Assembly (NCBI GenBank): GCA_947038265.1
Contig: CAMQVP010000001.1
Span: 124,968 to 188,967, forward strand
Source of the DNA: an uncultured Roseburia sp.
GTDB lineage: Bacteria; Bacillota; Clostridia; Lachnospirales; Lachnospiraceae
DNA: 64,000 nucleotides
Direction of reading: 5' to 3'
Shown here: one piece after another, positions 38,093-59,805 of the stretch
How the letters are laid out: each line of letters begins with the position of its first letter
Position numbering within the stretch: the stretch's first letter is position 1
Notes under the pieces: model-generated
Databases searched by the model: none
Seen by the model: the letters and a program-made list of their open reading frames with translations, nothing else
What the model was told of the DNA's origin: nothing
Program-made: the position numbers and the translations under genes

Positions 38093-38104
38093 GTCTCTCT
38101 CCTC

Positions 38105-39595
38105 CTATGCAAAAACGGATAATCCCTGCGCAATCCAGTCCGTAATCGGCTGTGAACACATGCCAAGCACAACATTCAATATAATAAACAACAACAGCGT
38201 AACGGCATACGCCGGATTTTCCTTCCATGACGCCGATGCGTATTTGCCATGCGCCGGAGTATAAATCCGAATCACTGTTTTCATAAAATAAATGGTATTT
38301 AAAATCGTGCTGATGGCAAGGGCAATTAACGTCGGAAGCACTTTATGTTCATTTAAAATCGCCGCTTGTGAAAACAAAAGCTTACTGACAAATCCAGAAA
38401 AAACCGGAATGCCTACCATAGAAAGCGAACCGACGGTAAACGCAAGACCTGCGCATATATTGCGGTAAGCCGAGCCGGTCAGCTCCAAAAACTCCTTATG
38501 GCCCCCCGACACATCAGTAAGGCCCGAACCGGAAACAAACAAAAGTGATTTTGTCGCCGCATGGGACAGCATATGGAACACAGACGCCACCATGCCGACC
38601 GCCGTGCCAAGCCCAAACCCCATATAGATATAGCCAATCTGCGCCACAGATGAAAATGAAATCATTCTGCGAATGTCATTTTCCCGTATTGCGCTCAAAG
38701 AGCCCATAATCATGCCGGCAAGGCCAAACACAAAAAGAACATTAATAATTTTACTGTCCCTAAATGTATCAAATCCTATTACGCGGTAAATAATCTTAAT
38801 CAGTAAAAAAATATACCCTTTTGAAACAAGGCTTGACAAAATCGCCGCGGAAGAAACCGTGGAATACCCATAAGCGTTCGGGAGCCACGCATGGAACGGA
38901 AACAGCGCGCTTTTAATTGCAAGCCCGACGACAATCAGCGCAATCGTAACTAAAAGCGGCGTATGGTACGTCCCGTTTGCCACAATCGCATCAATGCCCG
39001 CCTTGATATTGCTCATTAAAAGATGCCCTGTCAAATCGTAAAGCAGGCAGATTCCAATTAAAAAAAGCCCGGAACCCAATAGGCTCATAATCATATAACG
39101 CGTTGCCGCTTCAATCGTATGCCCCCGCTCCGTAATCATAATTAATCCGCAGGCGGAAATTGTATTTATCTCTACAAAAACATACGCAGTAAACAAGTCG
39201 TTCGTATACACAAGCGCCAAAAGAGAACTCAAAAGCAAATCCACCATAATGTAATAGAGGTTTTCCTTGGCGGGATTGATTTCAAGCAGTAATTTCTTTC
39301 TTCCCCCATTTAAAGAAAGCATCATAATTACACAGAAAAATAACGCCATTCCGGCTTCTAAAGAACCAAAACGGATTTCATTCCCAAACGGCGCCGGAAA
39401 ATGCCCCATCACATAGACATAGCTTTCTTTTGTCGTGATCGTCAAATACAATACGGCAAATGACAAGACGCTGACTGCCGCTATTACAAAGGAATTAAGC
39501 CATCTTGCTCCCCTGCCTTTCAACGCTGAACTGATAATCGCCGCAAACATGCACAGCAGGATTGAAAGGCATGGGAAATTTTTTATTATCTCCAT
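38105..39595 (-). CDS. MrpD/NuoL-like antiporter subunit (copy 1)
   Basis: The protein is 496 aa and reads SALFPFHAWLPNAYGYSTVSSAAILSSLVSKGYIF. Confidence 0.75.
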   Translation of the reverse strand: MEIIKNFPCLSILLCMFAAIISSALKGRGARWLNSFVIAAVSVLSFAVLYLTITTKESYVYVMGHFPAPFGNEIRFGSLEAGMALFFCVIMMLSLNGGRKKLLLEINPAKENLYYIMVDLLLSSLLALVYTNDLFTAYVFVEINTISACGLIMITERGHTIEAATRYMIMSLLGSGLFLIGICLLYDLTGHLLMSNIKAGIDAIVANGTYHTPLLVTIALIVVGLAIKSALFPFHAWLPNAYGYSTVSSAAILSSLVSKGYIFLLIKIIYRVIGFDTFRDSKIINVLFVFGLAGMIMGSLSAIRENDIRRMISFSSVAQIGYIYMGFGLGTAVGMVASVFHMLSHAATKSLLFVSGSGLTDVSGGHKEFLELTGSAYRNICAGLAFTVGSLSMVGIPVFSGFVSKLLFSQAAILNEHKVLPTLIALAISTILNTIYFMKTVIRIYTPAHGKYASASWKENPAYAVTLLLFIILNVVLGMCSQPITDWIAQGLSVFA

Positions 39596-39969
39596 TATCG
39601 TTCTTCCCTCTTTACTCTTATCGAAATTTCATCTAAATCCAACGTATGATATCTGCGGTAAAGCCGGATTGTCAGAGAAAGCATAAGCGCCGTCACCGAC
39701 ACCGACACGACAATCCCCGTCAGCACAAGGCCGCTTGGCACCGGATTGATATACGTTTCCGGGCTTACATCGCCGTTTACCACTATCGGCGCAATATGCC
39801 CGGCGATATAGCCTTTTTCCGCAAGAAACAGATAAACGGCAGTGTCCATAATATTCAATCCGATAATCTTTTTTATCATATTTTTCTGTAAAAGCAGGTT
39901 TGTAAATCCAATTCCAAACAATAGAATCGCCACCGCTTCCGCATAGTTTGCAAGCAGATGTCCGCCCAT
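39595..39969 (-). CDS. MrpC/MnhC (NuoK-like) subunit
   Basis: The ~124-aa protein has 3 TM segments and reads AILLFGIGFTNLLLQKNMIKKIIGLNIMDTAVYLFL. Its stop and start overlap the flanking genes by 1 nt each. Confidence 0.7.
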   Translation of the reverse strand: MGGHLLANYAEAVAILLFGIGFTNLLLQKNMIKKIIGLNIMDTAVYLFLAEKGYIAGHIAPIVVNGDVSPETYINPVPSGLVLTGIVVSVSVTALMLSLTIRLYRRYHTLDLDEISIRVKREER

Positions 39970-40931
39970 TATAATCCTCCCCTCCGAAACAACGCGTAAA
40001 ACGCATACATAGTGCATGCCACTTCCGATCCGACAAAAATATTAATTGGAAGCGTAATGCCGCCGCTTAAAATCTTTCCGGCTTTTCCCAGCGGGATAAT
40101 ACTCTCTAATCCGTTCGCGCCGGTCAGGAAATAATACGTCACGATACAGCCATAACAGATTAACGCCGTCACCTTAATACATTTATAAACCTTTTCATTA
40201 AAAAACTTCTCCGTCTTATCAAAACCGAACGCCGCAACATATAAAATCATGCCCGCCCCAATCATCGCCCCTCCGGAAAAACCGCCGCCCGGCGATAAGT
40301 GCCCGTTTAAAATAATATAGATCCCAAACAAAAACACCAACGGAACGATAAGCGTCGCAACTTTCTTTAAGATTAAATTATTCTTCGGCTCAAAGCCACG
40401 ATCGTTCGACTCCTTATTTTCCCGAATTTTATCCTCATCTACCATCAGCATAATCATGACGCAGCAAGTCGCAATAAACAGCACATTCGTCTCACCAAAC
40501 GTATCAAACGCGCGGTACGAAAGAATCATGCCCGTAACGATATTGACGGCTCCCGTATCTTTTAAGCCATCTGATATATAAGTCTCCGATACAATATTAT
40601 TCGTCGGTTTATCTTCCGCCCCAACGCTTGGCAGATAGGAAACCATATACACCAGCACAAATACCAAAGCAATGCAAAAGACTACGCTCATACACTTATA
40701 TAGGACATTAAAAAATTTCAATTCTTTATTGTGCCTTCTGTCATACACTTCCGACAAAGCCTGCCTTCTGTCTCTTAAACGTTCTTCAATCGTCGTTTCC
40801 GCTTCGGCATACTCCTTCTGGGGATGCATTTCCATATTTCCCATAAATGCATCTTTTTCTCCGCCCAGCCATCTGAAAAAATGAAACGCAAACGTTTTTT
40901 CGTATTCACTCTGTTTCCTGATATGGCTCAT
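39969..40931 (-). CDS. MnhB/MrpB-related subunit (MbhE/F-like)
   Basis: The MnhB signature ILNGHLSPGGGFSGGAMIGAG is present. The start sits at an ATG after AGGAGGA. Confidence 0.7.
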   Translation of the reverse strand: MSHIRKQSEYEKTFAFHFFRWLGGEKDAFMGNMEMHPQKEYAEAETTIEERLRDRRQALSEVYDRRHNKELKFFNVLYKCMSVVFCIALVFVLVYMVSYLPSVGAEDKPTNNIVSETYISDGLKDTGAVNIVTGMILSYRAFDTFGETNVLFIATCCVMIMLMVDEDKIRENKESNDRGFEPKNNLILKKVATLIVPLVFLFGIYIILNGHLSPGGGFSGGAMIGAGMILYVAAFGFDKTEKFFNEKVYKCIKVTALICYGCIVTYYFLTGANGLESIIPLGKAGKILSGGITLPINIFVGSEVACTMYAFYALFRRGGL

Positions 40932-41190
40932 CGTCCTCCTCCTTTTCCGCTTCTTGGCGCAGCGCATGGATTTTTTTCAGCGTGACAAAAAACAAAATAC
41001 TCGTCACTCCGGCGCCAACCGCCGCTTCCGTAATCGCAAGATCCGGAGATTCCAGCAATATCCAGATAATCGACATAATCAGGCTGTATGACATAAAAAT
41101 CAAAATTGAATTTAAAAGGTTTTTTGAAAAACTGACCGAAACAGCGCAGACAATCAAAAAGCCGAGCAAAATCATATTAAATATCTGCAT
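40906..41190 (-). CDS. DUF4040 (MrpA C-terminal / MrpB N-terminal, MbhD-like) small membrane subunit
   Basis: The 94-aa protein has 3 TM segments, reads ILLESPDLAITEAAVGAGV and ends in an acidic tail. Confidence 0.6.
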   Translation of the reverse strand: MQIFNMILLGFLIVCAVSVSFSKNLLNSILIFMSYSLIMSIIWILLESPDLAITEAAVGAGVTSILFFVTLKKIHALRQEAEKEEDDEPYQETE

Positions 41191-41590
41191 CTTCCCCGTC
41201 CCCTTTCCGGACCGCTTCTTTTTCGGCTTCCTCCATGCTCACCATACGGCAGTTTTCCAGCAAAGTCTGATCCGTCGTATATTCCAGACGGGCAATCATA
41301 TGGGAAGACACGGGAGATGCGCACCATAAAAACACAATCACAAGCGCAAGCTTCGCCGTCGTCGCATCCCAGCCGTTTGCAACCATAAGACCGATTAAAC
41401 AAAGCCCAATGCCAAGCGTGTCTCCCGTCGCCGCGATCTGCATCCGGTTTAGCACAAATTTAAAACGGTAAACCCCGAAAATTTCCAAAAAGAAAATCGA
41501 CATGCCGAACACCAGCAACACTATTACAATCCCAAACCGAATCCATTCAATCGCCGCCATGCGCATCGCCCTCCCCATCGTCTCTTTCAA
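41177..41590 (-). CDS. MrpG/MnhG subunit
   Basis: The motif RMQIAATGDTLGIGLCLIGLMV corresponds to the RxHAxxKxxTxG-like MnhG signature. The exact start is uncertain, with several in-frame ATGs. Confidence 0.7.
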   Translation of the reverse strand: MKETMGRAMRMAAIEWIRFGIVIVLLVFGMSIFFLEIFGVYRFKFVLNRMQIAATGDTLGIGLCLIGLMVANGWDATTAKLALVIVFLWCASPVSSHMIARLEYTTDQTLLENCRMVSMEEAEKEAVRKGDGEDADI

Positions 41591-41879
41591 AATATACGCC
41601 CATATAGACTTTCGTCAAAATTATGACCGCCAAAAAACTAATCATTGCATAAATCAGGCAGATGTCCGCCAAATACCCTTCCTTGAGCATAACGGCAAGA
41701 ATTGCAATCGCCACCATAACCATCGTGCCCATCATATTGATTGCCACAATCCTGTCCGCCATTCTAGGCCCTGCCACCGCCCGTATCAGGCAGGCAAAAA
41801 ACAATACGGCAAGGATTACAAGCAAAACGACAAACAAGCCGTGATACGCCTGATTTAACGCCGCAATACCGCTATACAT
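41547..41879 (-). CDS. MrpF/MnhF subunit
   Basis: The motif LIRAVAGPRMADRIVAINMMGTMVM matches the MrpF pattern. Confidence 0.7.
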   Translation of the reverse strand: MYSGIAALNQAYHGLFVVLLVILAVLFFACLIRAVAGPRMADRIVAINMMGTMVMVAIAILAVMLKEGYLADICLIYAMISFLAVIILTKVYMGVYFERDDGEGDAHGGD

Positions 41880-42372
41880 GCCGCTTCCCCCTTTTCTTTA
41901 ACATTTCATCGTCAATCGCTTCCATTCTGCGGAGCATATGGACAAACACACTGTCGTCCATGCCTGCCGCCAAACTAACGTCCAACGCATGAACCGTCAG
42001 TTCATCTTCCTCCATCGCCACGGTAATTGTCCCCGGCGTCAGCGTAATGGAATTTGCCAATACCACATTGGCAAGATCCGTCTTTAATCCTGTTTGGAAT
42101 TGCACAATAACAGGATCAATTTCATTTCGGTAGCTTAACGTTAATCGAATCGCGCTTACATTCGCCTTAATGATTTCCCAGAATAAAACCAGAATATACA
42201 GCAAAATAAGCGGAAGCTTCCGTAAAAGAAGAATGTCCTTTTCAATAGAATAATCCATAAACTTACAAAAGAATGCGTACATTGCCCCTGCAATCACGAT
42301 TCCAAAACATACAATCTCCCCTGTCAACTGTCCATTGAGGAGAATCCATAATAATAGAAATACAAGATACAT
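41872..42372 (-). CDS. MrpE/MnhE subunit
   Basis: The motif LLWILLNGQLTGEIVCFGIVIA matches the MNHE N-terminus. The start sits at an ATG after GGGGGTG. Confidence 0.7.
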   Translation of the reverse strand: MYLVFLLLWILLNGQLTGEIVCFGIVIAGAMYAFFCKFMDYSIEKDILLLRKLPLILLYILVLFWEIIKANVSAIRLTLSYRNEIDPVIVQFQTGLKTDLANVVLANSITLTPGTITVAMEEDELTVHALDVSLAAGMDDSVFVHMLRRMEAIDDEMLKKRGKRHV

Positions 42373-42589
42373 ATTCTCACACCCCCAAATTAATTTACAC
42401 CCATTGCATAGAAGAATCAAGTAAATTATAATTTTTTTTGCGTTTTATAAGCAGTATGGAAAAACTTTCCATAAATAGATATAGCAATTACCATACAGCA
42501 TTTAACAGCTAATCACAAAATTTGCAACAAGATTGGAGATTGTATCCGGCATTGTCCCCTTCCTCTCTTTCACAGATTATTTGTTTTGC

Positions 42590-42618: not shown

Positions 42619-42630
42619 AACAGAGGTTTT

Positions 42631-42710
42631 GCGGGTATGGCGGAATTGGCAGACGCGCCAGATTTAGGTTCTGGTGGGAGACCGTGCAGGTTCAAGTCCT
42701 GTTACCCGCA
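42631..42710 (+). tRNA. tRNA-Leu (anticodon TAG)
   Basis: Acceptor GCGGGTA pairs with TACCCGC, the D-arm is GCGGAATTGGCAGACGC, the anticodon loop is TTTAGGT (TAG) and the T-arm reads GGTTCAAGTCC. The 3' 49 nt are duplicated at 59488-59536. Confidence 0.85.
42662..42710 (+). repeat. attL-side direct repeat (tRNA-Leu 3' end), identical to 59488-59536
   Basis: Forty-nine of 49 nt are identical. Flanking sequence diverges immediately outside both copies. Confidence 0.9.
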
Positions 42711-42765
42711 TGATTTCAGGGTTTTTGAAACATTTGAGATGTTTCAGAGACCCTGTTTTTTTGCA

Positions 42766-42789
42766 TTTGACAGCAATTTGACAGCAACC
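42766..42789 (+). repeat. Pair of TTGACAGCAA direct repeats ~58 bp inside attL (candidate integrase arm-type sites)
   Basis: The sequence tttgacagcaatttgacagcaacc matches the pair at 59353-59376 in the same orientation. Confidence 0.6.
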
Positions 42790-43034
42790 AGAAAAATAAG
42801 GATATAATTCAAAAATTTCGAGACCATTTTCGGATATGCCTTAACAGGGTTTTTTCTGCTGAAAGCATAACACATCTTCATTTGTCTTTCAATTAGTTTC
42901 ACTTTTCCTCTTTTTTATGAAACAGTGTTAAAAATTTTTATGTAGATTTTTACAAAAAAATATAATAAAATATCAAAAAAGAGGTTATATAGTATATTTT
43001 TTATACTGCATAACTTAATATAGGAGAAATGATA

Positions 43035-45236
43035 ATGAAAATAATTTCTGTTAAAAATTTTCCAAAAGAAAACCTTGAAAAAAGTTATCCAAACACTTCT
43101 TCTTTACCCAAAAGACTTTCCCCGGAAGAAGCATCTGAAAAAGGCATTCCAATTTATATTAGCGCAGACTGGTATACTGTCATAAAGGGAAAACCCATCT
43201 GTTTTGTATTTCTCTCTTTCCGTCAGCATCAAGTTTATGGAGAAGATGAAAATCAGCTGCAGGACTGCCTTTATTCTATAAACTTATGGGCGGATTCACA
43301 ATTATTTGATATTGAACTTCCAAAGCAGGAAATCTATAATTCAAAATGGCTAAAGCAGCTCCATACGAAAAACCTCATTTTGATTTCTAAATCACAATAT
43401 GAACTTCTGCTTCAAGCCATACAGCCGGATACAAATAGCTCCTTTTATTTTGAGAAAATCGGCATTCATCAACTTTATGGAAAATACTATTATGCAGCTT
43501 CCAATTGTGCCATTACATCAGAGGGCATTGACAAATCCATAAAAGCGATGCAGGAAGGATTCAATTTAGAAATCGATTCCGAACTTTCGTTGAAAGACGA
43601 AGCCCCAAAAAAAAGCATTGAGAATTTTATGGACTACACTGCCCAGAATTACCGCGTCTTTTATCCTATCCACTGCATTTCTATTCTCGCTGTCCTAAGA
43701 TACTTTTTAAAAAAACTGGGCCGATCGGCAGGAGCCGTGCTATGGATTGACGGAAAGGTTGCCAGTGGGAAAACACAATTAGCCGTAACTATGGGTGACT
43801 TTTTCAACCGAAGCAGTAATTGGGAAGACCAGATTAAACATCTGCAAACCACCAAATCAAAACCAAAACTAATTGCAGCAGAACTTTCCAAATACAGGAA
43901 TGCTGTATTTATCCTTGACGATATTAAAAAAGAAGAAACATCTGGCAGCCGGGACAATACCAAAAACATTACAGATCTGCTCATCCGCTCTATATACACC
44001 GGAAAAACAGGGGGTTTTGGCACAGATGAGCAGCCGATTGACGCTGCTGCCGTTATTACAGGGGAGTATTTTAAAGAAATAGAATCCACATCATCAAGAC
44101 TGCTCTATTTGAATATAGACGATTTTTTACAGAAAGAAACAAACAGCAATCAATTCAAAAATATTCAAAAAGACAAATCTTACCTTGCTAAGTTTATGTC
44201 CTATTTTATACAATGGCTATTTCAATGGATAGAAGACATCAATAATGCTAAATTCTTAGAAACCACACTTACTAATTTACAAAATGATGCAGCAGAATGT
44301 TTTCATGGAGAATTAAGTACGCGAATGGCTGAGACGCTGGCAAATTTCCAATTAGTATCAGAAATCCTCAATGAGTATTTTAAAGAAAACCAGATTCCAA
44401 AAATAAACTGCACAGAATTTCATAAGAAATCCAGAGATTCTCTAAAAAATCTCGCTTACGCCACATTATACAAAAGTCTGAATTACTATCCCCTCATAGA
44501 GGAGTGCTTTTATAAAACACTGTCAGACCTTAAAATCAAAGACTGCCGATACGGGGAACATTATTTAAATATCGCATTGTCATCAGGAAATGACCATCTA
44601 CTACATATAGCCAAAGCTAAAGATACAGATTACCTTCATGAACCTGGAGCAAGCGCTATCAATTACGACGCCAAAGGTGAAAAGAAACTCTGGCTGTTGG
44701 GACTTCAGGAAGGCTACGACGGCATCATGTTAAACATAAAAGAATGCAATGTATTATTAGTAAAATCCAAAGTTCTATGCAGTCTAATTCGCGAGAAAAT
44801 AAAATCAGATATACAAAAGTGGCATATTAAATTATATCATTCTGATATGGAAGATGAAAGAATCCTAAACACCCTATTGGAACATCATTGCATTTATGGA
44901 TACAAACGGAGAGACAACAATTCATTTGATAAGATCATCAATTATCCTGAATTCTCCAGCAACCAAAATTTACTGAAGGAATATCATGAAAAACCATTTA
45001 TTGAGCAAGAACAGATGCATCATATGGTAAAAATAAACATAGCAAATGAACGTATATATAATAGAATTACAGATATAAAAAAGCCAGCTATGGATTCGTT
45101 TGCAACTTTATTTTCTGCTATGAACACATATGATTCAAGCGAAGGCAGACATTTTATAGAACCAAACGATGGTCCATACATGAAAAACCTCAAAGACATA
45201 TTTGCTAAAATTAATAGATTTTCAGACCTCCGGTAA
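43035..45236 (+). CDS. Large (733 aa) P-loop NTPase of unknown function (Walker A GKVASGKT, Walker B VFILDD); candidate island replication/primase-helicase-like or defence ATPase
   Basis: The Walker A motif LWIDGKVASGKTQLA lies at ~aa 240 and the Walker B motif NAVFILDDIKKEE at ~aa 295. The gene is AT-rich and is the first gene inside attL, directly upstream of xis-int. I could recognise no other domain. Confidence 0.5.
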   Translation: MKIISVKNFPKENLEKSYPNTSSLPKRLSPEEASEKGIPIYISADWYTVIKGKPICFVFLSFRQHQVYGEDENQLQDCLYSINLWADSQLFDIELPKQEIYNSKWLKQLHTKNLILISKSQYELLLQAIQPDTNSSFYFEKIGIHQLYGKYYYAASNCAITSEGIDKSIKAMQEGFNLEIDSELSLKDEAPKKSIENFMDYTAQNYRVFYPIHCISILAVLRYFLKKLGRSAGAVLWIDGKVASGKTQLAVTMGDFFNRSSNWEDQIKHLQTTKSKPKLIAAELSKYRNAVFILDDIKKEETSGSRDNTKNITDLLIRSIYTGKTGGFGTDEQPIDAAAVITGEYFKEIESTSSRLLYLNIDDFLQKETNSNQFKNIQKDKSYLAKFMSYFIQWLFQWIEDINNAKFLETTLTNLQNDAAECFHGELSTRMAETLANFQLVSEILNEYFKENQIPKINCTEFHKKSRDSLKNLAYATLYKSLNYYPLIEECFYKTLSDLKIKDCRYGEHYLNIALSSGNDHLLHIAKAKDTDYLHEPGASAINYDAKGEKKLWLLGLQEGYDGIMLNIKECNVLLVKSKVLCSLIREKIKSDIQKWHIKLYHSDMEDERILNTLLEHHCIYGYKRRDNNSFDKIINYPEFSSNQNLLKEYHEKPFIEQEQMHHMVKINIANERIYNRITDIKKPAMDSFATLFSAMNTYDSSEGRHFIEPNDGPYMKNLKDIFAKINRFSDLR

Positions 45237-45315
45237 CATCAAAGTAGCAGTAAAATCACCAGTTATATTTATATATCATATCTGGGACTAAATAAAACAG
45301 AAAGGATGATTTACC

Positions 45316-45486
45316 ATGAACAATTATGAAAAAGCTGCTTTGAGCGTAGAAGAAACTGCCAAATACTTAAACATTGGAAGGAGCTTATGCTACCGGATGA
45401 TCAGGGAAAACAAAATTCCTCATTTGAAATTTGCAAGCCGGATTGTCGTTCCAAAAGTTAAATTGGACGAAATGTTAAGTAAATAA
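45316..45486 (+). CDS. xis: Excisionase-family helix-turn-helix DNA-binding protein (Xis-like, HTH_17)
   Basis: The 56-aa protein reads MNNYEKAALSVEETAKYLNIGRSLCYRMIRENKIPHLKFASRIVVPKVKLDEML, with RBS AAAGGATGA. It is not in the ORF track because of its small size. Confidence 0.8.
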   Translation: MNNYEKAALSVEETAKYLNIGRSLCYRMIRENKIPHLKFASRIVVPKVKLDEMLSK

Positions 45487-45554
45487 AAACGAAAGCACAA
45501 AGAGCAATCAGTAACGGTTGCTCTATTTTTATGCATTTTACGGAGGCACAGATT

Positions 45555-46760
45555 ATGAAAAAAAGAAGTAATGGAGAAGGCACAATCTGCAAAAGGAATG
45601 ATGGAAGATGGATGGCTCAAATCCTCATTGATACCGGATATGGAGAATTTAAAAGGAAAACCGTATATGGAAAAACACAGCGTGAAGTGAAAGAAAAATT
45701 AGAGCAGTTAAAATCAGACCAAAAACAAGGCCGGGTAATTGAAACTTCGGATATGCCTTTAGAACAGTGGATGAATATCTGGATTACAAATTATAAACCG
45801 GATTTGAAGATTACAACAAGAGAAGATTATGAATCCTATATTAATACGCATATCCGAGGATCAGATTTAGGAAAGATTCCTTTGAACAAATTAAAAACAA
45901 CGGATCTGCAATCATTTTATAACAATAAGCTTGCCGGAACCTGCAAAGGTCAAAAGAAGAAATTATCACCAACCACAGTCCGGTATATTCATGTAATTAT
46001 CAAAAGTGCGTTAAATCAGGCAATTCAAAACCGGATGATAAACAACAATGCTGCAAATGCAGTCGTTCTCCCAAAAAAGAACAAGACGGAAATCATTCCT
46101 CTCACGCAGGAAGAAGTAATCCGCTTCCTTGAAACCGCAAGAGGGGATCGGCTATATGCACTATATTTGCTGGAAATGATGACCGGATTACGAAAAGGAG
46201 AAATTTTAGGCTTACAATGGAATGACATTGATTTTAAATGCAAAAGAATTACTGTTTCGCATAATCTCTGCCGGATTAAAAGCCGAAATAAAAATGCAGG
46301 AAAAAAATATGAATTAATCCTGATGAATCCTAAAACAGCAACCTCCAAAAGATGTATTCCCATCAATGATTTTATGGCTGACGAACTGCAAAAACATAAA
46401 TTGCACCAGATGAAAGAAAAAGAATTATACGGTGACTATTACAATGACCTTGGAATGGTTTTTTGCAAGCCAGACGGAAACTACATTTATTCCAGGGATT
46501 TTCTAAGACAATATCAAAATCTCCTTTCTAAAGCCGGTCTGGAAAAAAAACGGTTCCACGACTTGCGCCATACAGTAGCCAGCCTGCTTATCAATGCAAA
46601 TGAAAATCCTAAAATGATACAACAATTACTCGGCCACTCAAATATAAGCACTACACTGGATATTTATGCGCATGTAATGGACAAGTCCATGAATAAAAGC
46701 GTGGATAAAATCTATCAGCAGCTAGGTTTAAATTCCATACCCCAAAAAAAGAATCCCTAA
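45555..46760 (+). CDS. int: Tyrosine site-specific integrase (phage integrase family)
   Basis: The N-terminal SAM-like domain reads MKKRSNGEGTICKRNDGRWMAQI. The catalytic motifs read FHDLRHTVASLL (HxxR) and LLGHSNISTTLDIYAHV (the nucleophile Tyr). The start sits at an ATG after CGGAGG. Confidence 0.92.
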   Translation: MKKRSNGEGTICKRNDGRWMAQILIDTGYGEFKRKTVYGKTQREVKEKLEQLKSDQKQGRVIETSDMPLEQWMNIWITNYKPDLKITTREDYESYINTHIRGSDLGKIPLNKLKTTDLQSFYNNKLAGTCKGQKKKLSPTTVRYIHVIIKSALNQAIQNRMINNNAANAVVLPKKNKTEIIPLTQEEVIRFLETARGDRLYALYLLEMMTGLRKGEILGLQWNDIDFKCKRITVSHNLCRIKSRNKNAGKKYELILMNPKTATSKRCIPINDFMADELQKHKLHQMKEKELYGDYYNDLGMVFCKPDGNYIYSRDFLRQYQNLLSKAGLEKKRFHDLRHTVASLLINANENPKMIQQLLGHSNISTTLDIYAHVMDKSMNKSVDKIYQQLGLNSIPQKKNP

Positions 46761-46881
46761 TACAGTAAGCCTGCCACTGGCCAGCCTTTCTGCATACTGA
46801 GACAGTATAAGAAGCCTATGAACTACTTAGCTTTCATAGGCTTCCTATTTGATTTCTCATTTTTAAAAACAAGGCTGTCTA

Positions 46882-47775
46882 TCAAAAATATCCTTCTGCC
46901 TCCTCTGCAGAAAGGCCGTATTCTTCCATAATCGTTTCTTTGATTTCCGCATCTCCATGCCCAAATTTTCGAAGCATGTCTATTGCTCCCTGAATTCCCT
47001 GCTGCAATCCTTGCTGCAGTCCTTGCTGAATTCCCTGTTGCAATCCTTCGCTTATCTTTTCTTCATCCCTTAATAATAACTGTGGTTCCATGATCTCCAT
47101 TAACGCCTGGCACATACTAGCATCTCCCTTCCATTCTTCCACTGCCTGCCTGTTTGCCCCTATGCTGACCTCTAGAACGGAATCTGCCAGCTCCAGGTCG
47201 TTTTTTCCTGTCAGACTCCGGATTTTTTCCAGCAGTTCCGTTATGTCCTCTTTCTCCAGTTTTTCCGATAACGCTCCAAGCCATGTATGCTCCGCCTTAT
47301 CCAGCTCGCCCGTGACAACAACCTGCACAGGAAACATATTTTTCCCTTTTATATAATATATCCCCCGGTACGGGTTGGATACCATATATCCATGCTCCGC
47401 AAAATATCGGAAAAGCCCTTCCGGCCTTGTTTCCCGGAGCAGCGACACCGTAATGTCATCCTCTTTTCTTTCATCAGCCGCTTTCCCATAAGCTTTATAA
47501 AGGCCTGCATATGCCAGGGCTTTGTAAAAGGCGTCTATATCCAAATGGTCTTTGGGCGATTTGTATTCCATAATGTTATGCCCCAAAAAGAAGGCCCCTA
47601 TTTCATTTCCAATCCGCACGGATGGTTCTTTTTTTATCACCAGCAGGTCAATTTCCAAAGGCTTGGTGTTTAAATTATATTCTTTCTCAAAGACCAGCGC
47701 ATCCCGGTTCTCTGCAAGCTCCAAACCCATTGCTGCCACAAAGCCCGGATGCCACTGCACTTTCCTGTCTTTCAT
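46882..47775 (-). CDS. Rpn-family recombination-promoting nuclease / putative transposase (PD-(D/E)XK, TIGR01784-like)
   Basis: The N-terminal core reads LEIDLLVIKKEP...FLGHNIMEYKSPKD. The C-terminal tail reads EGLQQGIQQGLQQGLQQGIQGAIDMLRKFG with characteristic QQG repeats. Confidence 0.6.
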   Translation of the reverse strand: MKDRKVQWHPGFVAAMGLELAENRDALVFEKEYNLNTKPLEIDLLVIKKEPSVRIGNEIGAFFLGHNIMEYKSPKDHLDIDAFYKALAYAGLYKAYGKAADERKEDDITVSLLRETRPEGLFRYFAEHGYMVSNPYRGIYYIKGKNMFPVQVVVTGELDKAEHTWLGALSEKLEKEDITELLEKIRSLTGKNDLELADSVLEVSIGANRQAVEEWKGDASMCQALMEIMEPQLLLRDEEKISEGLQQGIQQGLQQGLQQGIQGAIDMLRKFGHGDAEIKETIMEEYGLSAEEAEGYF

Positions 47776-48043
47776 AGTAATCTCCTTTGTGTGGTTAAAT
47801 TATAACATACCTTTCATAATTTCCGCAACCGCCCAAATCTCTACATTAAATTACCTTAGCAGGTATATAAATTTTCCATGTATCGGAAACGGCTGCAGGA
47901 TTTAGATTCCACAGCCGCTTCTGCTTCTTTTTCTTATTCCTCATTCCCATCCTTAGACAAAAGCGCGAGAACCGCCGTCAATATCCCCGCTACAACCGCC
48001 TTGATGATATGCTCCATAATTCCAACCGCCTTTCTGCGCTGCT

Positions 48044-48922
48044 TCATGCAATCCGTATCTCCCCGCTCTTTCTGTCATAGAGGTACACACTGTCCGACAG
48101 CCGCTCCTCCGGCATCACCTGCGTCCGGTTTACCTCCTTTACGATCTCCGCCAGTTCCTCCGGCTTCCCTGCGGAGACAGGGAGCAGCAGGATTTCATGT
48201 ATCGAGCTTGGCAGGATGTACAGGTCGCTTCCCAGTTCCTGCGCCAGCCCGGAAAACTCCCCCGCAAACAGCATGGCCGCAGCGCCGCCCAATTTAAAAC
48301 GGTTTGTGGCGACATACATCTGAATGGGGCTGCAGCCGCTGTCTGCAGGCGCTCCCAACATCTCACGGATGACTTTGTCCATGGTCTGGATTTTCGTCCC
48401 TCCGTTCTTTTTATGGTTCTCATACGCAGCTTCTCGCAGCTCTCTTTGGCAGATTCCCCAGTAATCCATATGGCTGTCTGTAATCAGGACTGCTGCAAAT
48501 CCGTCCCTGCCCGTTTCTGCAGTGAAATAATAGGCCTCTGCCAGATCCAGGAATCGTCTATGCGGCACGTCCTCCAGCATTTCCCTGTTCTTTTGGTAAT
48601 GCACCAGCCGTACGGAAACCTTTTTCCTTACACGTTTCCAGTCCATGAATTCCCCTTTGTCTAACGGCGTCTTCCCTGCATACTGCAGGTACAGACCCCA
48701 GATCTCCTCCACGGTTTCCCCAAATCCTTTCCCTCCGCACAGCTTTTCATGCCATGCGTCCAGGTAGATGACAGGGGAAGCCTCATCTCCCGGCCTTGAC
48801 AGAATCATCCCCGTCCGTTTTACGGAATTATTTTTTATGGTTTCCCGTATTTCCACGCTTCCGGTTCCCAGCCGGAACTGCATTTCCTCTTTTATTTTCT
48901 GCTTAAATTTTTCAAAATCCAT
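48044..48922 (-). CDS. Hypothetical protein (DUF5688-like, common on Firmicutes conjugative elements)
   Basis: The ~290-aa protein starts at an ATG after AAGGAGGAA. I recognised no catalytic motif. The family assignment is from memory only. Confidence 0.35.
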   Translation of the reverse strand: MDFEKFKQKIKEEMQFRLGTGSVEIRETIKNNSVKRTGMILSRPGDEASPVIYLDAWHEKLCGGKGFGETVEEIWGLYLQYAGKTPLDKGEFMDWKRVRKKVSVRLVHYQKNREMLEDVPHRRFLDLAEAYYFTAETGRDGFAAVLITDSHMDYWGICQRELREAAYENHKKNGGTKIQTMDKVIREMLGAPADSGCSPIQMYVATNRFKLGGAAAMLFAGEFSGLAQELGSDLYILPSSIHEILLLPVSAGKPEELAEIVKEVNRTQVMPEERLSDSVYLYDRKSGEIRIA

Positions 48923-49062
48923 CTCCACGCTTCCTCCTTAAAATAATCTGGGCGCATGGCATTTTCCCCATGCGCCCGCGTTATGTCCCGGCATTTATAA
49001 AATTATTCTTTGGGGTACGCATTAAATGCCGCATACCCATTTTGCAATGCGTATCCCGTCCT

Positions 49063-49272
49063 TTACGCCCTCCATGTAAAGGGCCGCTTCTTTCCAGCGG
49101 GCCTGTGGTCAAGGAGCATCCCTGCCTGCGTCCGCTCTTTTCCGCTTAAGCCGCCTCCCAGTATTTTTTCCAGCTCCGCAAACGTTTCCCCCTGCTCCGG
49201 GAGGCCCTGCTGTTTCGACAGCATGTCCAGCCGCTTTTCAACCGCCCATGCGGTAAAATCCTCTTCTTCCAT
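49063..49272 (-). CDS. Small hypothetical protein (69 aa)
   Basis: The protein reads MEEEDFTAWAVEKRLDMLSKQQGLPEQGETFAELEKILGG. The start sits after AGGAGG. Confidence 0.35.
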   Translation of the reverse strand: MEEEDFTAWAVEKRLDMLSKQQGLPEQGETFAELEKILGGGLSGKERTQAGMLLDHRPAGKKRPFTWRA

Positions 49273-49313
49273 GTCCTGCCTCCTGAAAATCCCATGGGGA
49301 TTTTGTCCATCCA

Positions 49314-50036
49314 CTATGCCGCTTCCTTCGGCTTTGTCCTCTTGAGGCTTCCCAGCGCCTTTTTGTAGATCTCCGGCGTCATCTGGCCTGTTCCTTTGAG
49401 CTGGTATCTGTCTAAGACCGCTTCCATGGCGATCCCCGTCCGCTCCAGCTCCTTTTCCAGTATCCGCATCTGGCCCGCCGTCAGCCCTTCCGGCGTTTTA
49501 TCAGGAGCTGCTTTATTTTCCGTCTCCCGGTCCAGCCCGTACACTTTCACTCCCCTCTGGTTTACGACTGCAAGAGCTGCAATTTCCCTCCGCCCGTTGT
49601 ACCCGATTGACTGCACGCGGAAACGGTCTTTTGCCACATAGCGGTCCCCATTTTTCTGGATGTCCGCTTTTTCAGCCGGAACCCAGATGAACGGGGCCGT
49701 ATAGAGCTCGCGCCCTATGCCCCAGTTGAAACACGCCCTCTTGAAGGAATCCGAAGCCTGCCCTTTCTCCTTTTCCGAATGACTCATAACGCCCACGTCC
49801 TGTTTTGCGATCCACTGCTTTTTCTCACTGTCCCAGACCTCCACCGTGCAGTACAGGTTCCCGTCGATGCTCTGGTGGCTCCTTTTCCAGCCGAAGGGCG
49901 AAAATGTCTCGTCCAATATCTTCTGGTCCACGCGCGCGTCCTTGAAAAGCAGGAGGCTTAAGCCGTTCCCGTTTATCGTGGACACCCTGCATTCAATCTC
50001 ATCCGCCCGCAGCAGCCGTATCATGTCATCTCCCAT
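49314..50036 (-). CDS. Rad52/22-family single-strand annealing protein (phage SSAP)
   Basis: The motif FSPFGWKRSHQSIDGNLYCTVEVWDSEKKQWIAKQDVGVMSHSEKEKGQASDSFKRACFNWGIGRELY is the Rad52 N-terminal annealing domain signature. Confidence 0.75.
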   Translation of the reverse strand: MGDDMIRLLRADEIECRVSTINGNGLSLLLFKDARVDQKILDETFSPFGWKRSHQSIDGNLYCTVEVWDSEKKQWIAKQDVGVMSHSEKEKGQASDSFKRACFNWGIGRELYTAPFIWVPAEKADIQKNGDRYVAKDRFRVQSIGYNGRREIAALAVVNQRGVKVYGLDRETENKAAPDKTPEGLTAGQMRILEKELERTGIAMEAVLDRYQLKGTGQMTPEIYKKALGSLKRTKPKEAA

Positions 50037-50181
50037 ATGGTTTTTCCTTTCCGTTTTTATATGCTTTTTCATTGCCTGTTCTTTTCTGCTTCTTTTCCGC
50101 TTCTTTCTGCCGCTTTATCCTTCCGCTCCATTCTTTTTGTCATCAGGATGACGGTTCCGGCCGCTTTCCACTGGCTCTGCC

Positions 50182-51111: not shown

Positions 51112-51191
51112 TTTTTCTTTTCCTCCCTGTAATTTTTTTGTTTTTTTGTTAATTTTGGAAGCATTTCTTCCGGAACATTTCACAGGCCCCG

Positions 51192-52067: not shown

Positions 52068-52322
52068 CCCCAGCCCATGCCAGGGTTTTTCCCTTGTTTA
52101 AAACATTGTTTCCACATCTGCTGCCATTTCTGCATTCCTCCTTGTATATTAATATATAAAAACAGGGCTGCAGATTCCGCACGCACACGGTTTTCCACAG
52201 CCCTGTTTCTGCCTGTTTTAAATATTCTTCTGCTTATGCTGTTTTTTATTTCCTGCCGGGAACGCGCCAGTACATGAAAGCAGAAAAATGGGGCGTCTGC
52301 TTCCGCCCCATTTCCCTCCCGG

Positions 52323-56018: not shown

Positions 56019-56296
56019 ATCGTTCCTCCTTTGATTTTTGTCTTTTTGTCTTTCCATAATTCAAACCCTTATGCGCATCCCTTGCCTCTTTTCATTTGTA
56101 AATGCCTTGCATCTCCCCTTTCCCGCTCTTCCTAAAAGCCGACTTTCTTTTTTCTGAAAATGGCTTTTCACTCCATCATGCCTTACATTTTATATCCTCT
56201 AAGCAAATTTTACAATGCTTATAGCAATTATATTTTCTCCCAAAGCAAAACGCAGCATTATATCATGAATAAAACAAACTCTGGAGGTGAATGATT

Positions 56297-57153: not shown

Positions 57154-57684
57154 TCATTTCTCTATCTCCTCTTTTAAGATCTGCCTGAACCTGTCCTGCC
57201 GTTCCCGTGTCTGCCTCATATTCTCGCGCCGTTTGTTTCCTGTGGTAAAATTTACGCTGTTAATGACAAAATGAATATGTATGCAGTCATTGCCACTGTC
57301 TTTCGTATGTGCGCCATATACAACCTGGCAGTGGTCCCTCTCATAAAAATCATATGCCATTTTCCGTGCAATCTTATCCACGTCTATTCTTTTTTCCTTA
57401 ATATGCCTTTCTTCCACAGATGAACAGGAATAAATCTCATGGTCCACATACCGCCCAAATTTACCTTTCCTCCTGTGCATCTTCTGTACGTCTTCAAACT
57501 GCCTTGTCATTCCTTCCGTCCCCGTAAATTCTGCAACGCCTATGCCGCCCCATGTAATCAGGTCATTGTCCGGCTTTCCATTTGTGCGCGTTACATACCG
57601 GATCAAATATACCATATCCTGAAAATTAGAATATTTTCCTTTTCTGGCTTTGTTAAGTAATAATCCGTATTCTGAACTTTTCAT
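57154..57684 (-). CDS. Relaxase/mobilization nuclease N-terminal domain (MobA/VirD2-like), apparently truncated
   Basis: The HUH motif III HTKDSGNDCIHIHFVINSVN fits HxDxxxxxHxHxxxN. The ORF stops 22 aa later, so only 176 aa remain, and it overlaps the mobC stop by 4 nt. Confidence 0.6.
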   Translation of the reverse strand: MKSSEYGLLLNKARKGKYSNFQDMVYLIRYVTRTNGKPDNDLITWGGIGVAEFTGTEGMTRQFEDVQKMHRRKGKFGRYVDHEIYSCSSVEERHIKEKRIDVDKIARKMAYDFYERDHCQVVYGAHTKDSGNDCIHIHFVINSVNFTTGNKRRENMRQTRERQDRFRQILKEEIEK

Positions 57685-57971
57685 TTTCTAAAATCCTCCC
57701 CAAATTTTTTCAGCGCCGTCTGAAATATTTTCCTCACCTCCTGCTCCGTCTGCCTGCCGTCAGACATTACCAGGCCATGATAAATCTCATTTAACAAATT
57801 ACAGATGTCAATTTTATCTGAAATAAAACGATAACTACTGATTTTTTCTTCCATGCTTTTTCTCAATATATAGACACTCATGCTTTCATTATTTTGTTTT
57901 GATAAGTATTTTAATTTTTCTTTTTGTTCTTTTGTTACTCGTAGTTTTATAGATTCATTTTTTGTTTTCAT
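57681..57971 (-). CDS. mobC: MobC-like ribbon-helix-helix mobilization accessory protein
   Basis: The RHH segment reads IKLRVTKEQKEKLKYLSKQNNESMSVYI. The gene is translationally coupled to the relaxase ORF. Confidence 0.6.
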   Translation of the reverse strand: MKTKNESIKLRVTKEQKEKLKYLSKQNNESMSVYILRKSMEEKISSYRFISDKIDICNLLNEIYHGLVMSDGRQTEQEVRKIFQTALKKFGEDFRK

Positions 57972-58258: not shown

Positions 58259-58414
58259 ATGGACGACTATTACATGACCGTAAAAGAATTCTGTGAGAGG
58301 CTGCAGGTCAGCCCGTCAACTGTTTACCGGATGATAAAGAACCATATGATCCCTGCTGTGAAATTTGGACGGTATTGGAAAATACCAAGAAGCGTATTTG
58401 ATTCCATACATTAG
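58259..58414 (+). CDS. Excisionase-family HTH DNA-binding protein (second xis-like gene)
   Basis: The 51-aa protein reads MDDYYMTVKEFCERLQVSPSTVYRMIKNHMIPAVKFGRYWKIPRSVFDSIH, with RBS GGAAAGGAGAG. It is not in the ORF track. Confidence 0.8.
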   Translation: MDDYYMTVKEFCERLQVSPSTVYRMIKNHMIPAVKFGRYWKIPRSVFDSIH

Positions 58415-58505: not shown

Positions 58506-58733
58506 TCAAAGCCTTATGGCATTGCCTGAAAAAGGATGCGCCCGTTCAAAATCAGAAGCCTCCCTGCTGATTTCTTCCGGCGTTTTCCTGTCAAAATACC
58601 CTCTTTGCCATTTTGTATAATCAAATTTTTCTCTGATAACAAAGGAAATGAACTGCTCTGCCTCCACAATTCCCATTTGATCTGTCAGGCATTTCATGCC
58701 CCTGTTCATAATTTCAACCATATTTGCAGACAT
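58506..58733 (-). CDS. Small hypothetical protein (75 aa), translationally coupled partner of the PIN-like gene
   Basis: Its start abuts the PIN ORF stop (58733/58734). I recognised no motif. Confidence 0.35.
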   Translation of the reverse strand: MSANMVEIMNRGMKCLTDQMGIVEAEQFISFVIREKFDYTKWQRGYFDRKTPEEISREASDFERAHPFSGNAIRL

Positions 58734-59352: not shown

Positions 59353-59376
59353 TTGACAGCAATTTTGACAGCAACG
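59353..59376 (+). repeat. Pair of TTGACAGCAA direct repeats ~115 bp inside attR (candidate arm-type sites)
   Basis: The sequence ttgacagcaattttgacagcaacg matches 42766-42789 with a single 1-nt indel. Confidence 0.6.
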
Positions 59377-59487: not shown

Positions 59488-59536
59488 ATTTAGGTTCTGG
59501 TGGGAGACCGTGCAGGTTCAAGTCCTGTTACCCGCA
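59488..59536 (+). repeat. attR-side direct repeat: displaced copy of tRNA-Leu(TAG) 3' 49 nt
   Basis: The sequence atttaggttctggtgggagaccgtgcaggttcaagtcctgttacccgca is identical to the tRNA 3' end. No 5' half of a tRNA lies upstream. Confidence 0.9.
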
Positions 59537-59543
59537 TATACAG

Positions 59544-59768: not shown

Positions 59769-59805
59769 AAAAAGAAAAATGAGACGTTTATGGAGGTTTA
59801 ACCAC

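What the first reader, a model, noticed from the sequence alone, without database searches (positions are those of the whole stretch)
43035..45236. Unrecognisable 733-aa Walker A/B NTPase as first gene of the island, directly upstream of xis-int
The protein has a clear P-loop (GKVASGKT) and Walker B (VFILDD) in the middle of a long protein that is otherwise unassignable. It sits in the AT-rich int-proximal module. That position is where satellite and island replication initiators (P4/D5-like primase-helicases, VirE-like) occur, and where single-gene NTPase defence systems are carried. I could not place it in a family from sequence alone, so it is a candidate novel island function.
Basis: partly seen in the sequence, partly recalled or inferred. 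Interest (0 to 1): 0.6.

Follow-up and report, generated by a model that had tools for sequence, protein, structure and literature searches.

The report
Divergent Cch/Rep-like island replication helicase
The "unassignable" 733-aa ATPase is a very divergent relative of the MCM-like replication initiator-helicases carried by staphylococcal SCCmec and SaPI islands, here serving a small mobilisable island in a Lachnospiraceae gut bacterium; it is a useful annotation, not a new kind of function.

Summary
An intact ORF (43035/43029-45236, +) with Walker A GKVASGKT and Walker B VFILDD is the first gene of a 16.8-kb island. The island is bounded by a perfect 50-nt repeat of the tRNA-Leu(TAG) 3' half, and the ORF lies directly upstream of xis-int in an AT-rich module. 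No Pfam, NCBIfam, PHROG or PADLOC model recognises it.

An iterated sequence profile reaches SaPIbov1 Rep (E 5e-9) and Cch (E 5e-6). Distant relatives match Pfam DUF927, and two are Prim-Pol fusions.

The gene is under purifying selection (dN/dS about 0.15-0.18). In seven Lachnospiraceae genomes it keeps the same place: tRNA-Leu, helicase, xis, int. That includes a minimal 6.6-kb island, so it is core machinery and not cargo or defence.

It is most likely the self-loading replicative helicase of the excised island. No primase and no SaPI-type iteron origin were found.

Verdict: a new, highly divergent member of a known kind; modest interest.

The parts
42630..42711 (+). tRNA-Leu(TAG); its 3' half (42662-42711) is attL, the left copy of the 50-nt att repeat
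   Evidence: ARAGORN; perfect 50-nt direct repeat with 59488-59537. The same tRNA is the insertion site in seven related Lachnospiraceae loci.
42717..42755 (+). Island-borne intrinsic terminator (18-bp stem plus T-run) that restores termination of the tRNA gene
   Evidence: Terminator scan; sequence read. A comparable hairpin is present in L008.
42768..42787 (+). Two tandem TGACAGCAA repeats just inside attL; probable integrase arm-type sites (alternative reading: Rep iterons)
   Evidence: There are only 4 exact copies in the 64 kb, all at the island ends (0.41 expected). The same motif lies at both ends of the L008, L012 and L013 islands. Its conservation tracks Int (71% identity) and not the helicase (41%).
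43035..45236 (+). Gene for the Cch/SaPIbov1-Rep-like (DUF927-superfamily, MCM-like AAA+) initiator-helicase; an alternative in-frame ATG is at 43029
43029..43589 (+). N-terminal beta-rich domain (residues 1-187); no catalytic signature, presumed collar or oligomerisation domain
   Evidence: Secondary structure of the model. The conserved residues are aromatic or glycine only: F59, W107, G145. Profile A3 aligns from this domain onward with SaPIbov1 Rep residues 65-566.
43590..44123 (+). AAA+ ATPase core (residues 188-365). Walker A at 43752-43775, Walker B at 43902-43922, sensor-1 strand VITGEY at 44052-44069, and STSSR with the putative arginine finger R357 at 44085-44099
   Evidence: Motif positions. 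K248, D297, D298, R320 and R357 are invariant in 68 distant relatives. This is the most conserved domain, with 58% mean pairwise identity.
44124..44528 (+). Alpha-helical lid (residues 366-500) with the near-invariant R432 (candidate sensor 2)
   Evidence: Six predicted helices, H370-H498. R432 is invariant in A1 and near-invariant in A3.
44529..45233 (+). C-terminal alpha/beta domain (residues 501-680, presumed winged-helix DNA-binding and specificity domain) plus a family-specific two-helix tail (residues 681-735)
   Evidence: Model. The Foldseek alignments to Cch and Rep span about 665-678 columns. These are the least conserved parts, at 37% and 25% identity. The Pfam HTH_56 trace (E 0.19) is not corroborated in relatives.
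45316..45486 (+). xis (HTH_17 / excisionase family, 56 aa)
   Evidence: Pfam HTH_17 1.9e-10 and TIGR01764 3.2e-10. It is conserved between the helicase and int in L008 and L012.
45501..45524 (+). Conserved terminator-like hairpin between xis and int
   Evidence: Terminator scan. The same GAGCAA...TTGCTC plus T-run is present in L008 and L012.
45531..46760 (+). Tyrosine integrase
   Evidence: Pfam Phage_integrase 6.7e-28 and phrog_1 4.9e-78. It is 71% identical to the L008 integrase.
57154..57971 (-). Mobilisation module: NikA-like protein (57681-57971) and a 176-aa MobA/VirD2-type relaxase (57154-57684). In related loci this module sits divergently next to the helicase gene.
   Evidence: Pfam Relaxase 4.7e-11 and NikA-like 1.5e-5. 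Synteny in L001 and L004.
58259..58414 (+). Second small HTH_17 gene. Its counterpart directly precedes the helicase gene in L001 and L004, and in the circularised island it lies upstream of the helicase.
   Evidence: Pfam HTH_17 3.1e-14; gene order in L001 and L004.
59354..59374 (+). Two tandem TGACAGCAA repeats (plus a degenerate third, CAACAGCA) about 114 nt inside attR
59488..59537 (+). attR, the right copy of the 50-nt att repeat

Best explanation
The gene encodes the island's own replication initiator-helicase. It is a highly divergent member of the DUF927 / Cch / SaPIbov1-Rep lineage of MCM-like AAA+ 'self-loading' helicases.

Shown here:
- It has the four-part architecture of this lineage: a beta-rich N-terminal domain, an AAA+ core with intact Walker A and B and a conserved S-x-x-S-R motif, a helical lid, and a C-terminal alpha/beta domain.
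- It is under purifying selection.
- It is a constant core gene, placed immediately upstream of xis-int at the tRNA-Leu-proximal end of a family of small Lachnospiraceae integrative elements.

Inferred by analogy with Cch and SaPI Reps (PMC9371898, PMC7581432):
- After Xis/Int-mediated excision, the protein assembles as a hexamer (probably two) on an origin within the circular island through its variable C-terminal domain.
- It melts the origin and translocates 3'->5' on the leading strand, using ATP bound at K248/D297-D298 with R357 supplied in trans.
- Host primase and polymerase complete synthesis.
- Replication keeps the excised element from being lost. It also raises the copy number available for relaxase (NikA/MobA)-dependent mobilisation by a helper conjugative element.

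For: Sequence. The family profile finds 1,688 representative clusters. Of 68 distant members, 13 match Pfam DUF927, and two are Prim-Pol + DUF927 fusions. The widened profile hits SaPIbov1 Rep over nearly its full length (E 4.7e-9) and Cch (E 4.8e-6).

Catalytic residues. K248, D297, D298, R320 and R357 are invariant.

Selection. dN/dS is 0.14-0.18.

Context. In all 7 genome loci the gene lies 200-350 nt after tRNA-Leu(TAG) and before xis-int, including a minimal 6.6-kb island. 'Helicase operon immediately preceding the recombinase' is the layout described for SCC and related Bacillota elements (PMC10061031, PMC7581432). The AAA+ core is the most conserved part and the C-terminal parts the most variable, as expected if the C-terminus sets origin specificity (PMC9371898).
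Against: - The protein itself and its 25 closest relatives do not match Pfam DUF927 or the Cch HTH model. Identity to Cch and Rep is only about 13%.
- No SaPI-type origin was found downstream of the gene. The helicase-xis spacer is 79 nt and holds no iteron array flanking an AT-rich centre.
- No primase, SSB or polymerase gene was detected in the island, whereas SaPI Reps are always preceded by or fused to a primase (PMC10061031).
- Hexamer formation, ATPase and helicase activity, and island replication are all untested.
- Foldseek global TM-scores are modest (TMt about 0.5, rmsd about 12 A), which indicates different relative domain orientations and extra segments.
Confidence: 0.8

Rival explanations
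1. The helicase is a nickase-coupled motor and not a theta-type initiator. The island relaxase (NikA plus the 176-aa MobA/VirD2 nuclease), or an HUH Rep-like protein in other islands, nicks oriT/ori. The ring helicase is loaded at the nick and drives rolling-circle replication and/or strand transfer. It would replace the host PcrA/HelP function used by ICEBs1-type elements (that last comparison is from my own knowledge).
For: - No primase and no iteron origin were found.
- The helicase gene lies divergently next to the NikA/relaxase operon in L001 and L004, and in the circularised form of this island.
- Islands lacking NikA/MobA carry instead a conserved protein of about 366-420 aa. It has faint matches to the G2P rolling-circle initiator (E 0.007) and to a phage 'replication protein' PHROG (E 1.3e-6). 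The two kinds of nicking gene therefore have a complementary distribution.
Against: - All characterised relatives (SaPI Reps, Cch, Cch2) are origin-binding self-loading helicases (PMC9371898, PMC7581432). SCC elements and SaPIs encode no relaxase.
- The HUH assignment of the 366-aa family is weak.
- The sample is small (about 6 independent island types).
- Co-occurrence in a mobilisable element does not demonstrate functional coupling.
Confidence: 0.12
2. It is a single-gene AAA+ anti-phage or anti-MGE defence NTPase (BrxL-, KAP- or STAND-like) carried as island cargo.
Against: - There is no PADLOC hit at E<=1.
- The STAND hits cover only the P-loop region.
- The gene is retained in every related island, including the 6.6-kb minimal one, while the cargo varies.
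- Relatives are fused to Prim-Pol primases.
Confidence: 0.04
3. It is a decaying or non-functional remnant ORF in a degenerate island.
For: The island is a compositional mosaic (GC 0.37, 0.54 and 0.41 for successive modules). The relaxase is unusually short (176 aa).
Against: - The 733-aa ORF is intact.
- dN/dS is 0.14-0.18.
- The catalytic residues are invariant.
- The identical-protein cluster has 91 member sequences.
- The att repeats are perfect.
- The 176-aa relaxase length is itself conserved in L001 and L004.
Confidence: 0.02

Closest known systems
Cch, the MCM-like helicase of SCCmec pattern-1 elements (PDB 5dgk; Pfam DUF927 plus HTH_56)
   Different: - Identity is about 13%, and there is no Pfam DUF927 or HTH_56 match.
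- The protein is about 130 residues longer, with an extra C-terminal helical tail and inserts.
- The partner recombinase is a tyrosine integrase plus Xis, not the large serine CcrAB.
- There is no LP1413-like ssDNA-binding gene directly upstream.
- The host is a Lachnospiraceae gut anaerobe, and the element is mobilisable (relaxase/NikA).
SaPIbov1 Rep (PDB 8tch), initiator-helicase of staphylococcal pathogenicity islands
   Different: SaPI Reps are preceded by or fused to a primase. They have an iteron/AT-rich origin immediately 3' of rep (PMC9371898, PMC10061031). Neither feature was found here. SaPIs are phage satellites with packaging genes, whereas this island carries a relaxase module and no packaging genes.
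Archaeal/eukaryotic MCM
   Different: There is no detectable sequence similarity, no zinc-binding OB-fold NTD signature, and no dependence on separate loaders is expected.
SF3 / D5_N-Primase_Cterm helicases (P4 alpha, vaccinia D5, SCCmec Cch2, SaPI5 PriRep5)
   Same: They play the same biological role, MGE initiator-helicase, often next to integrases. They are distant AAA+ relatives.

Membership tests
DUF927 / Cch / SaPIbov1-Rep initiator-helicases | Match to the Pfam DUF927 (PF06048) model | tested here: not met
   There is no hit for the window protein, or for any of its 25 close relatives, even at E<=1. However, 13 of 68 distant relatives retrieved by the family profile do match (best E 2.6e-8; 22.7 bits against a cut-off of 22.6 in P0118). 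The link is therefore transitive only.
DUF927 / Cch / SaPIbov1-Rep initiator-helicases | Significant sequence-profile similarity to the solved family members | tested here: met
   Profile A3 (the window protein plus 67 relatives, each retrieved with the close-family profile A1; the weakest listed E-value is 8.7e-24) hits 8tch_A at E 4.7e-9 (near full length) and 5dgk_A at E 4.8e-6. The close-family profile A1 alone gave only generic P-loop hits.
DUF927 / Cch / SaPIbov1-Rep initiator-helicases | Overall fold: NTD, MCM-like AAA+ core, helical lid and C-terminal DNA-binding domain | tested here: met
DUF927 / Cch / SaPIbov1-Rep initiator-helicases | Intact ATPase motifs (Walker A lysine, Walker B acidic pair, sensor and arginine finger) | tested here: met
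   K248, D297, D298 and R357 are invariant, and G242, E346 and S353 are near-invariant, across 68 distant relatives. Assigning R357 as the trans arginine finger is an inference from its alignment with the SaPIbov1 'SAR' motif.
DUF927 / Cch / SaPIbov1-Rep initiator-helicases | C-terminal winged-helix domain that binds origin DNA | tested here: inconclusive
   An alpha/beta C-terminal domain is predicted and is included in the Foldseek alignments. The Pfam HTH_56 hit is sub-threshold (E 0.19) and occurs in only 1 of 26 family members. DNA binding is untested.
DUF927 / Cch / SaPIbov1-Rep initiator-helicases | Iteron-type origin immediately downstream of the gene (SaPI Reps; Cch2) | tested here: not met
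   The 79-nt helicase-xis spacer and the neighbouring DNA hold no iteron array, either here or in L008, L012, L005 or L006. The only repeats are the TGACAGCAA units beside the att sites. These co-vary with Int and are all in one orientation.
DUF927 / Cch / SaPIbov1-Rep initiator-helicases | Adjacent or fused primase (SaPIs), or SSB or PolA-SSB partner (SCC) | tested here: not met
   No primase, SSB or polymerase domain was detected in any island ORF scanned. Two distant relatives are Prim-Pol fusions.
DUF927 / Cch / SaPIbov1-Rep initiator-helicases | Encoded in an integrative element immediately upstream of its recombinase | tested here: met
   The order helicase, xis, int holds here and in L005, L006, L008 and L010-L013. 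The att repeats are defined.
DUF927 / Cch / SaPIbov1-Rep initiator-helicases | Hexameric ring, ATP-dependent 3'->5' helicase activity, and origin melting | not testable with these tools
   These need biochemistry or cryo-EM.
SF3 primase-helicases (P4 alpha / D5_N / Primase_Cterm / VirE / DUF3987) | Match to the Primase_Cterm, D5_N, VirE or DUF3987 models, or best fold match to D5, E1 or PriRep5 | tested here: not met
Defence NTPases (BrxL, KAP, STAND and others in PADLOC) | Match to a defence-system model and a variable, cargo-like distribution | tested here: not met

The most novel reading that the evidence does not exclude
These Lachnospiraceae islands carry an MCM-like ring helicase but no primase and no iteron origin. 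They always also carry a nicking enzyme, either NikA plus a 176-aa MobA-type mini-relaxase or an HUH Rep-like protein of about 366 aa.

The most novel reading not excluded is that the helicase is loaded at the relaxase-made nick. It would then drive primer-independent rolling-circle replication and transfer of the excised element. That would be an element-encoded hexameric substitute for the host PcrA/HelP system, and a new pairing of an MCM-like helicase with a conjugative relaxase.
Probability: 0.12. Interest if true: 0.6.

Novelty: new member of a known kind. Interest (0 to 1): 0.3.

Why it matters
- It turns a 'hypothetical protein' with no database annotation into a testable replication helicase. 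The protein's 90%-identity cluster has 91 member sequences. The broader family comprises about 1,700 clusters (at 50% identity) in metagenomes.
- It extends the Cch/SaPI-Rep (DUF927) lineage well beyond what the current Pfam models detect, into strictly anaerobic gut Lachnospiraceae.
- It shows that small tRNA-Leu-targeting mobilisable islands of gut Clostridia are probably replicative after excision. That affects their stability, copy number and transfer. These islands carry BspA-type surface proteins and recombination genes.
- Practically, the alignment made here could seed a new HMM so that such genes stop being reported as novel or unknown NTPases.
- It does not reveal a new mechanism.

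Tried and rejected
1. Direct family scans of the protein against Pfam, NCBIfam, PHROGs and PADLOC gave nothing. The only trace was a sub-threshold Pfam HTH_56 'Cch HTH' hit (E 0.19). I first took this as a lead. I then discounted it because none of the other 25 family members shows it.

2. phmmer and the close-family profile against PDB sequences gave only generic P-loop hits such as MsbA and adenylyl-sulfate kinase. These were rejected as uninformative.

3. tblastn against the phage collection found no match. Against plasmids it found only a 24%-identical stretch in two Clostridium butyricum megaplasmids, annotated hypothetical.

4. I searched for a SaPI-like iteron origin upstream and downstream of the gene, at the right island end, and downstream of the gene in five related loci. 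None was found.

5. I considered the TGACAGCAA repeats as Rep iterons. I judged them more likely to be Int arm-type sites for three reasons. They are perfectly conserved between islands whose Int is 71% identical but whose helicase is only 41% identical. They flank the att core on both sides. They all point the same way. This is an inference, not a proof.

6. I looked for a third att copy that would indicate tandem elements. There is none.

7. The afdb50 fold library was unavailable. The original Cch paper (PMC5052118) is not held.

8. The weak nSTAND3, NPHP3_N and RNA_helicase hits in relatives were rejected as P-loop-only matches.
Full report
**Observation**

The ORF is present as described. 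It runs 43029-45236 on the + strand (735 aa). The second ATG, at 43035, is the more likely start: a GGAG at 43023-43026 lies 8 nt upstream of it, and every homolog begins MKI.... Residue numbers below follow the 735-aa translation used in the tools.

- Walker A GKVASGKT is at residues 242-249, and Walker B AVFILDD at residues 292-298.
- A tRNA-Leu(TAG) lies at 42630-42711.
- The last 50 nt of that tRNA are repeated perfectly at 59488-59537. No third copy exists. The two copies define a 16.8-kb island, and this ORF is its first gene.
- An excisionase-family HTH_17 gene (45316-45486) and a tyrosine integrase (45531-46760) follow directly.
- The module is AT-rich. GC is 0.355 for the gene and 0.37 for 42712-47800, against 0.54 for 47800-54000 and 0.44-0.46 for the chromosomal flanks.

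The protein is invisible to Pfam, NCBIfam, PHROGs, PADLOC and PDB sequence searches.

**Homologs**

A word-indexed search of 5.8 billion proteins found only 27 clusters. All lack Pfam domains, and only one has an NCBI record (a Lachnospiraceae MAG, 'hypothetical protein').

The family alignment A1 shows invariant K248, D297/D298, R320, G345-E346, S353-T354 and R357. The AAA+ core is the best conserved part.

A full HMMER scan with A1 against 1.84 billion cluster representatives found 1,688 proteins at E<=1e-3 and 758 at E<=1e-10. The close family is therefore one branch of a large, mostly unannotated superfamily.

**Structure**

AlphaFold2 on A1 gave a confident model (pLDDT 85.9, pTM 0.81). 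It has five parts:

| Part | Residues |
|---|---|
| Beta-rich N-terminal domain | 1-187 |
| AAA+ alpha/beta core | 188-365 |
| Six-helix lid | 366-500 |
| Alpha/beta C-terminal domain | 501-680 |
| Two-helix tail | 681-735 |

Structural comparisons gave the following.

| Search | Best matches | Weaker matches |
|---|---|---|
| Foldseek against the PDB | SCCmec type IV Cch helicase 5dgk (E 6e-13); SaPIbov1 Rep 8tch (E 3e-10) | Poxvirus D5/E5, MCM, BrxL, large T antigen and SaPI5 PriRep (E about 1e-4 to 1e-3) |
| Foldseek against viral models, BFVD | Phage 'DUF927 domain-containing', Toprim-DUF927, 'replication protein B' and 'active helicase' proteins (E down to 8e-18) | - |

The protein therefore belongs with the MCM-like Cch/Rep(SaPIbov1) lineage.

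**Sequence-level bridge**

- Of 68 distant relatives (A3), 13 match Pfam DUF927, the Cch family.
- Two are N-terminal Prim-Pol fusions, with DUF927 at the gathering threshold.
- A profile of A3 hits SaPIbov1 Rep at E 4.7e-9 over almost its whole length, and Cch at E 4.8e-6. In those alignments the window family's TGE strand and S-x-x-S-R motif line up with Rep's STGES and SAR.

I take R357 as the arginine finger. This is an inference; it resembles the MCM SRFD motif, a comparison that rests on my own knowledge.

The close family alone does not reach DUF927. A sub-threshold HTH_56 'Cch HTH' hit in the window protein is not reproduced in relatives, so I set it aside.

**Is the gene functional, and is it core?**

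Nei-Gojobori dN/dS is 0.14-0.18 for the informative pairs. The gene is therefore not decaying.

All seven hits in a collection holding one genome per species are Lachnospiraceae: isolate COE1 and MGBC gut MAGs. In every one the gene lies 200-350 nt downstream of tRNA-Leu(TAG).

The islands are bounded by the same 49-52-nt tRNA repeat. They measure 6.64 kb in COE1 and L013, and 9.27 kb in L012. The helicase, xis, int order is kept throughout.

The 6.6-kb island holds little besides the helicase, xis, int, a 366-aa protein and a few small ORFs. Cargo differs between islands: BspA-type LRR protein, DUF5688, Rad52-like, YqaJ and DUF932 here, and different sets elsewhere. A gene that is constant while the cargo varies is element machinery, not a defence payload. 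PADLOC is also negative.

**Mechanism**

The papers on this family describe the following (PMC9371898, PMC7581432, PMC10061031, PMC5862659):

- SaPI Reps and SCC Cch/Cch2 are self-loading hexameric 3'->5' helicases.
- Their C-terminal winged-helix domain recognises the origin.
- SaPI origins are iteron arrays flanking an AT-rich centre just 3' of rep.
- The helicase operon sits immediately before the recombinase genes.
- DUF927 domains are repeatedly fused to AEP primases on MGEs.

By analogy, I propose that the excised circular island is replicated from an internal origin opened by this protein, with host priming and synthesis.

Two results are consistent with this. The C-terminal parts are the least conserved (37% and 25% identity, against 58% for the AAA+ core). 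The gene layout matches the family's.

Two results are not consistent with a strict SaPI-type system. I found no iteron array downstream of the gene or elsewhere near it, here or in five related loci. No primase, SSB or polymerase gene is present in the island.

**The TGACAGCAA repeats**

This 9-mer occurs four times in the 64 kb (0.41 expected). The copies form tandem pairs 57 nt inside attL and about 114 nt inside attR. The same arrangement is found in L008, L012 and L013.

Int is 71% identical between this island and L008, with a nearly identical N-terminus. The helicase is only 41% identical. All repeat copies share one orientation around the att core. I therefore read them as integrase arm-type sites. 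They remain the only candidate iterons and should be tested.

**A possible partner**

In L001 and L004 the helicase gene follows a small HTH_17 gene and lies divergent to a NikA-like plus 176-aa MobA/VirD2 relaxase operon. This island has the same genes at 57154-57971 and 58259-58414. They become adjacent to the helicase gene when the island circularises.

Islands without that pair carry a conserved 366-420-aa protein instead. It has faint matches to the G2P rolling-circle initiator and to a phage replication-protein PHROG (E 1.3e-6).

So every island seems to pair the helicase with some nicking enzyme. This may only reflect that these are mobilisable elements. It also leaves open a nick-loaded, rolling-circle role for the helicase. 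I give that reading about 12%.

**Comparison and novelty**

The element works like SCC and SaPI replication modules. On fold, profile similarity, motifs and gene layout, the protein is a member of the Cch/SaPIbov1-Rep superfamily.

It fails the Pfam DUF927 model and lacks the SaPI-type origin and primase. It is about 130 residues longer than Cch and pairs with a tyrosine integrase plus Xis, not with serine recombinases.

I rate it a new, very divergent member of a known kind. A specialist would find it a sensible extension of the family into gut Clostridia, not a surprise. Interest is 0.3.

I found no paper describing this family or these tRNA-Leu islands in the held literature. That search was limited.

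Noticed in passing
window 42768-42787 and 59354-59385; L008 9846-9865 and 16245-16276; L012 9785-9817 and 18815-18847: TGACAGCAA repeats lie in tandem just inside both island ends. There are 4 exact copies in the 64 kb and none elsewhere. They are conserved in sequence and position across islands of different species. They are probably integrase arm-type sites, with helicase iterons as the alternative.
   Followed up: partly
window 57154-57684 (-) and 57681-57971 (-); L001 5577-6382; L004 5517-6336: A MobA/VirD2-type relaxase of only 176 aa (nuclease domain alone) is paired with a NikA-like protein. The 176-aa length is conserved in three divergent loci, so it looks like a genuine mini-relaxase and not a truncation.
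   Followed up: partly
L008 13803-14903; L012 13731-14828; L006 6645-7751; L005 2906-4168 (-): A conserved unannotated protein family of about 366-420 aa is present only in related islands that lack the NikA/mini-relaxase pair. It has faint matches to the G2P rolling-circle initiator and to a phage 'replication protein' PHROG. It may be an alternative HUH nickase or relaxase.
   Followed up: partly
window 42717-42755: A strong intrinsic terminator (18-bp stem plus T-run) lies immediately after attL on the island side. The island therefore supplies a new terminator for the tRNA-Leu gene it integrates into. L008 has an equivalent hairpin.
   Followed up: partly
window 45501-45524; L008 about 12404-12436; L012 about 12309-12340: A conserved terminator-like hairpin (GAGCAA...TTGCTC plus T-run) lies between xis and int. 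This suggests that read-through from the helicase-xis transcript into int is attenuated.
   Followed up: no
window 47800-54000 compared with 42712-47800: There is a sharp compositional mosaic inside one island. The helicase-xis-int module has GC 0.37. The DUF5688 / Rad52-like / YqaJ / DUF932 module has GC 0.54. The two modules probably have different origins.
   Followed up: no
window 52323-56057 (-): The island cargo includes a 1,244-aa BspA-type leucine-rich-repeat surface protein with Ig-like and fn3 domains. It has internal DNA repeats of about 200-315 nt and is only 74% identical in the otherwise 99%-identical island of L007. It looks like a fast-evolving adhesin-like gene.
   Followed up: no
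window 46882-47775 (-): A 297-aa protein with a C-terminal QQG(I/L)QQG repeat and no family match sits just after int. It is conserved in related islands: 57% identity in L011 and L012, and 76% over a partial match of 175 aa in L006.
   Followed up: no
window 58506-59177 (-): A small two-gene unit, a 75-aa ORF plus a 147-aa protein with a weak PIN-domain match, lies between the HTH_17 gene and attR. It may be a toxin-antitoxin insertion. It is absent from the corresponding place in L001 and L004.
   Followed up: no
window 43661-44089 (-): A 142-aa antisense ORF lies inside the helicase gene and appears 'conserved' in tblastn against related loci. This is almost certainly a by-product of conservation of the sense frame over the AAA+ core, not a gene.
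   Followed up: no
window 36620-42420 (-): The chromosomal flank left of the tRNA carries an operon whose long products look like Mrp/Mnh-type multisubunit cation/proton antiporter subunits. I judged this from the ORF translations only and did not scan them. The right flank starts with a methyl-accepting chemotaxis protein (59740-61317).
   Followed up: no
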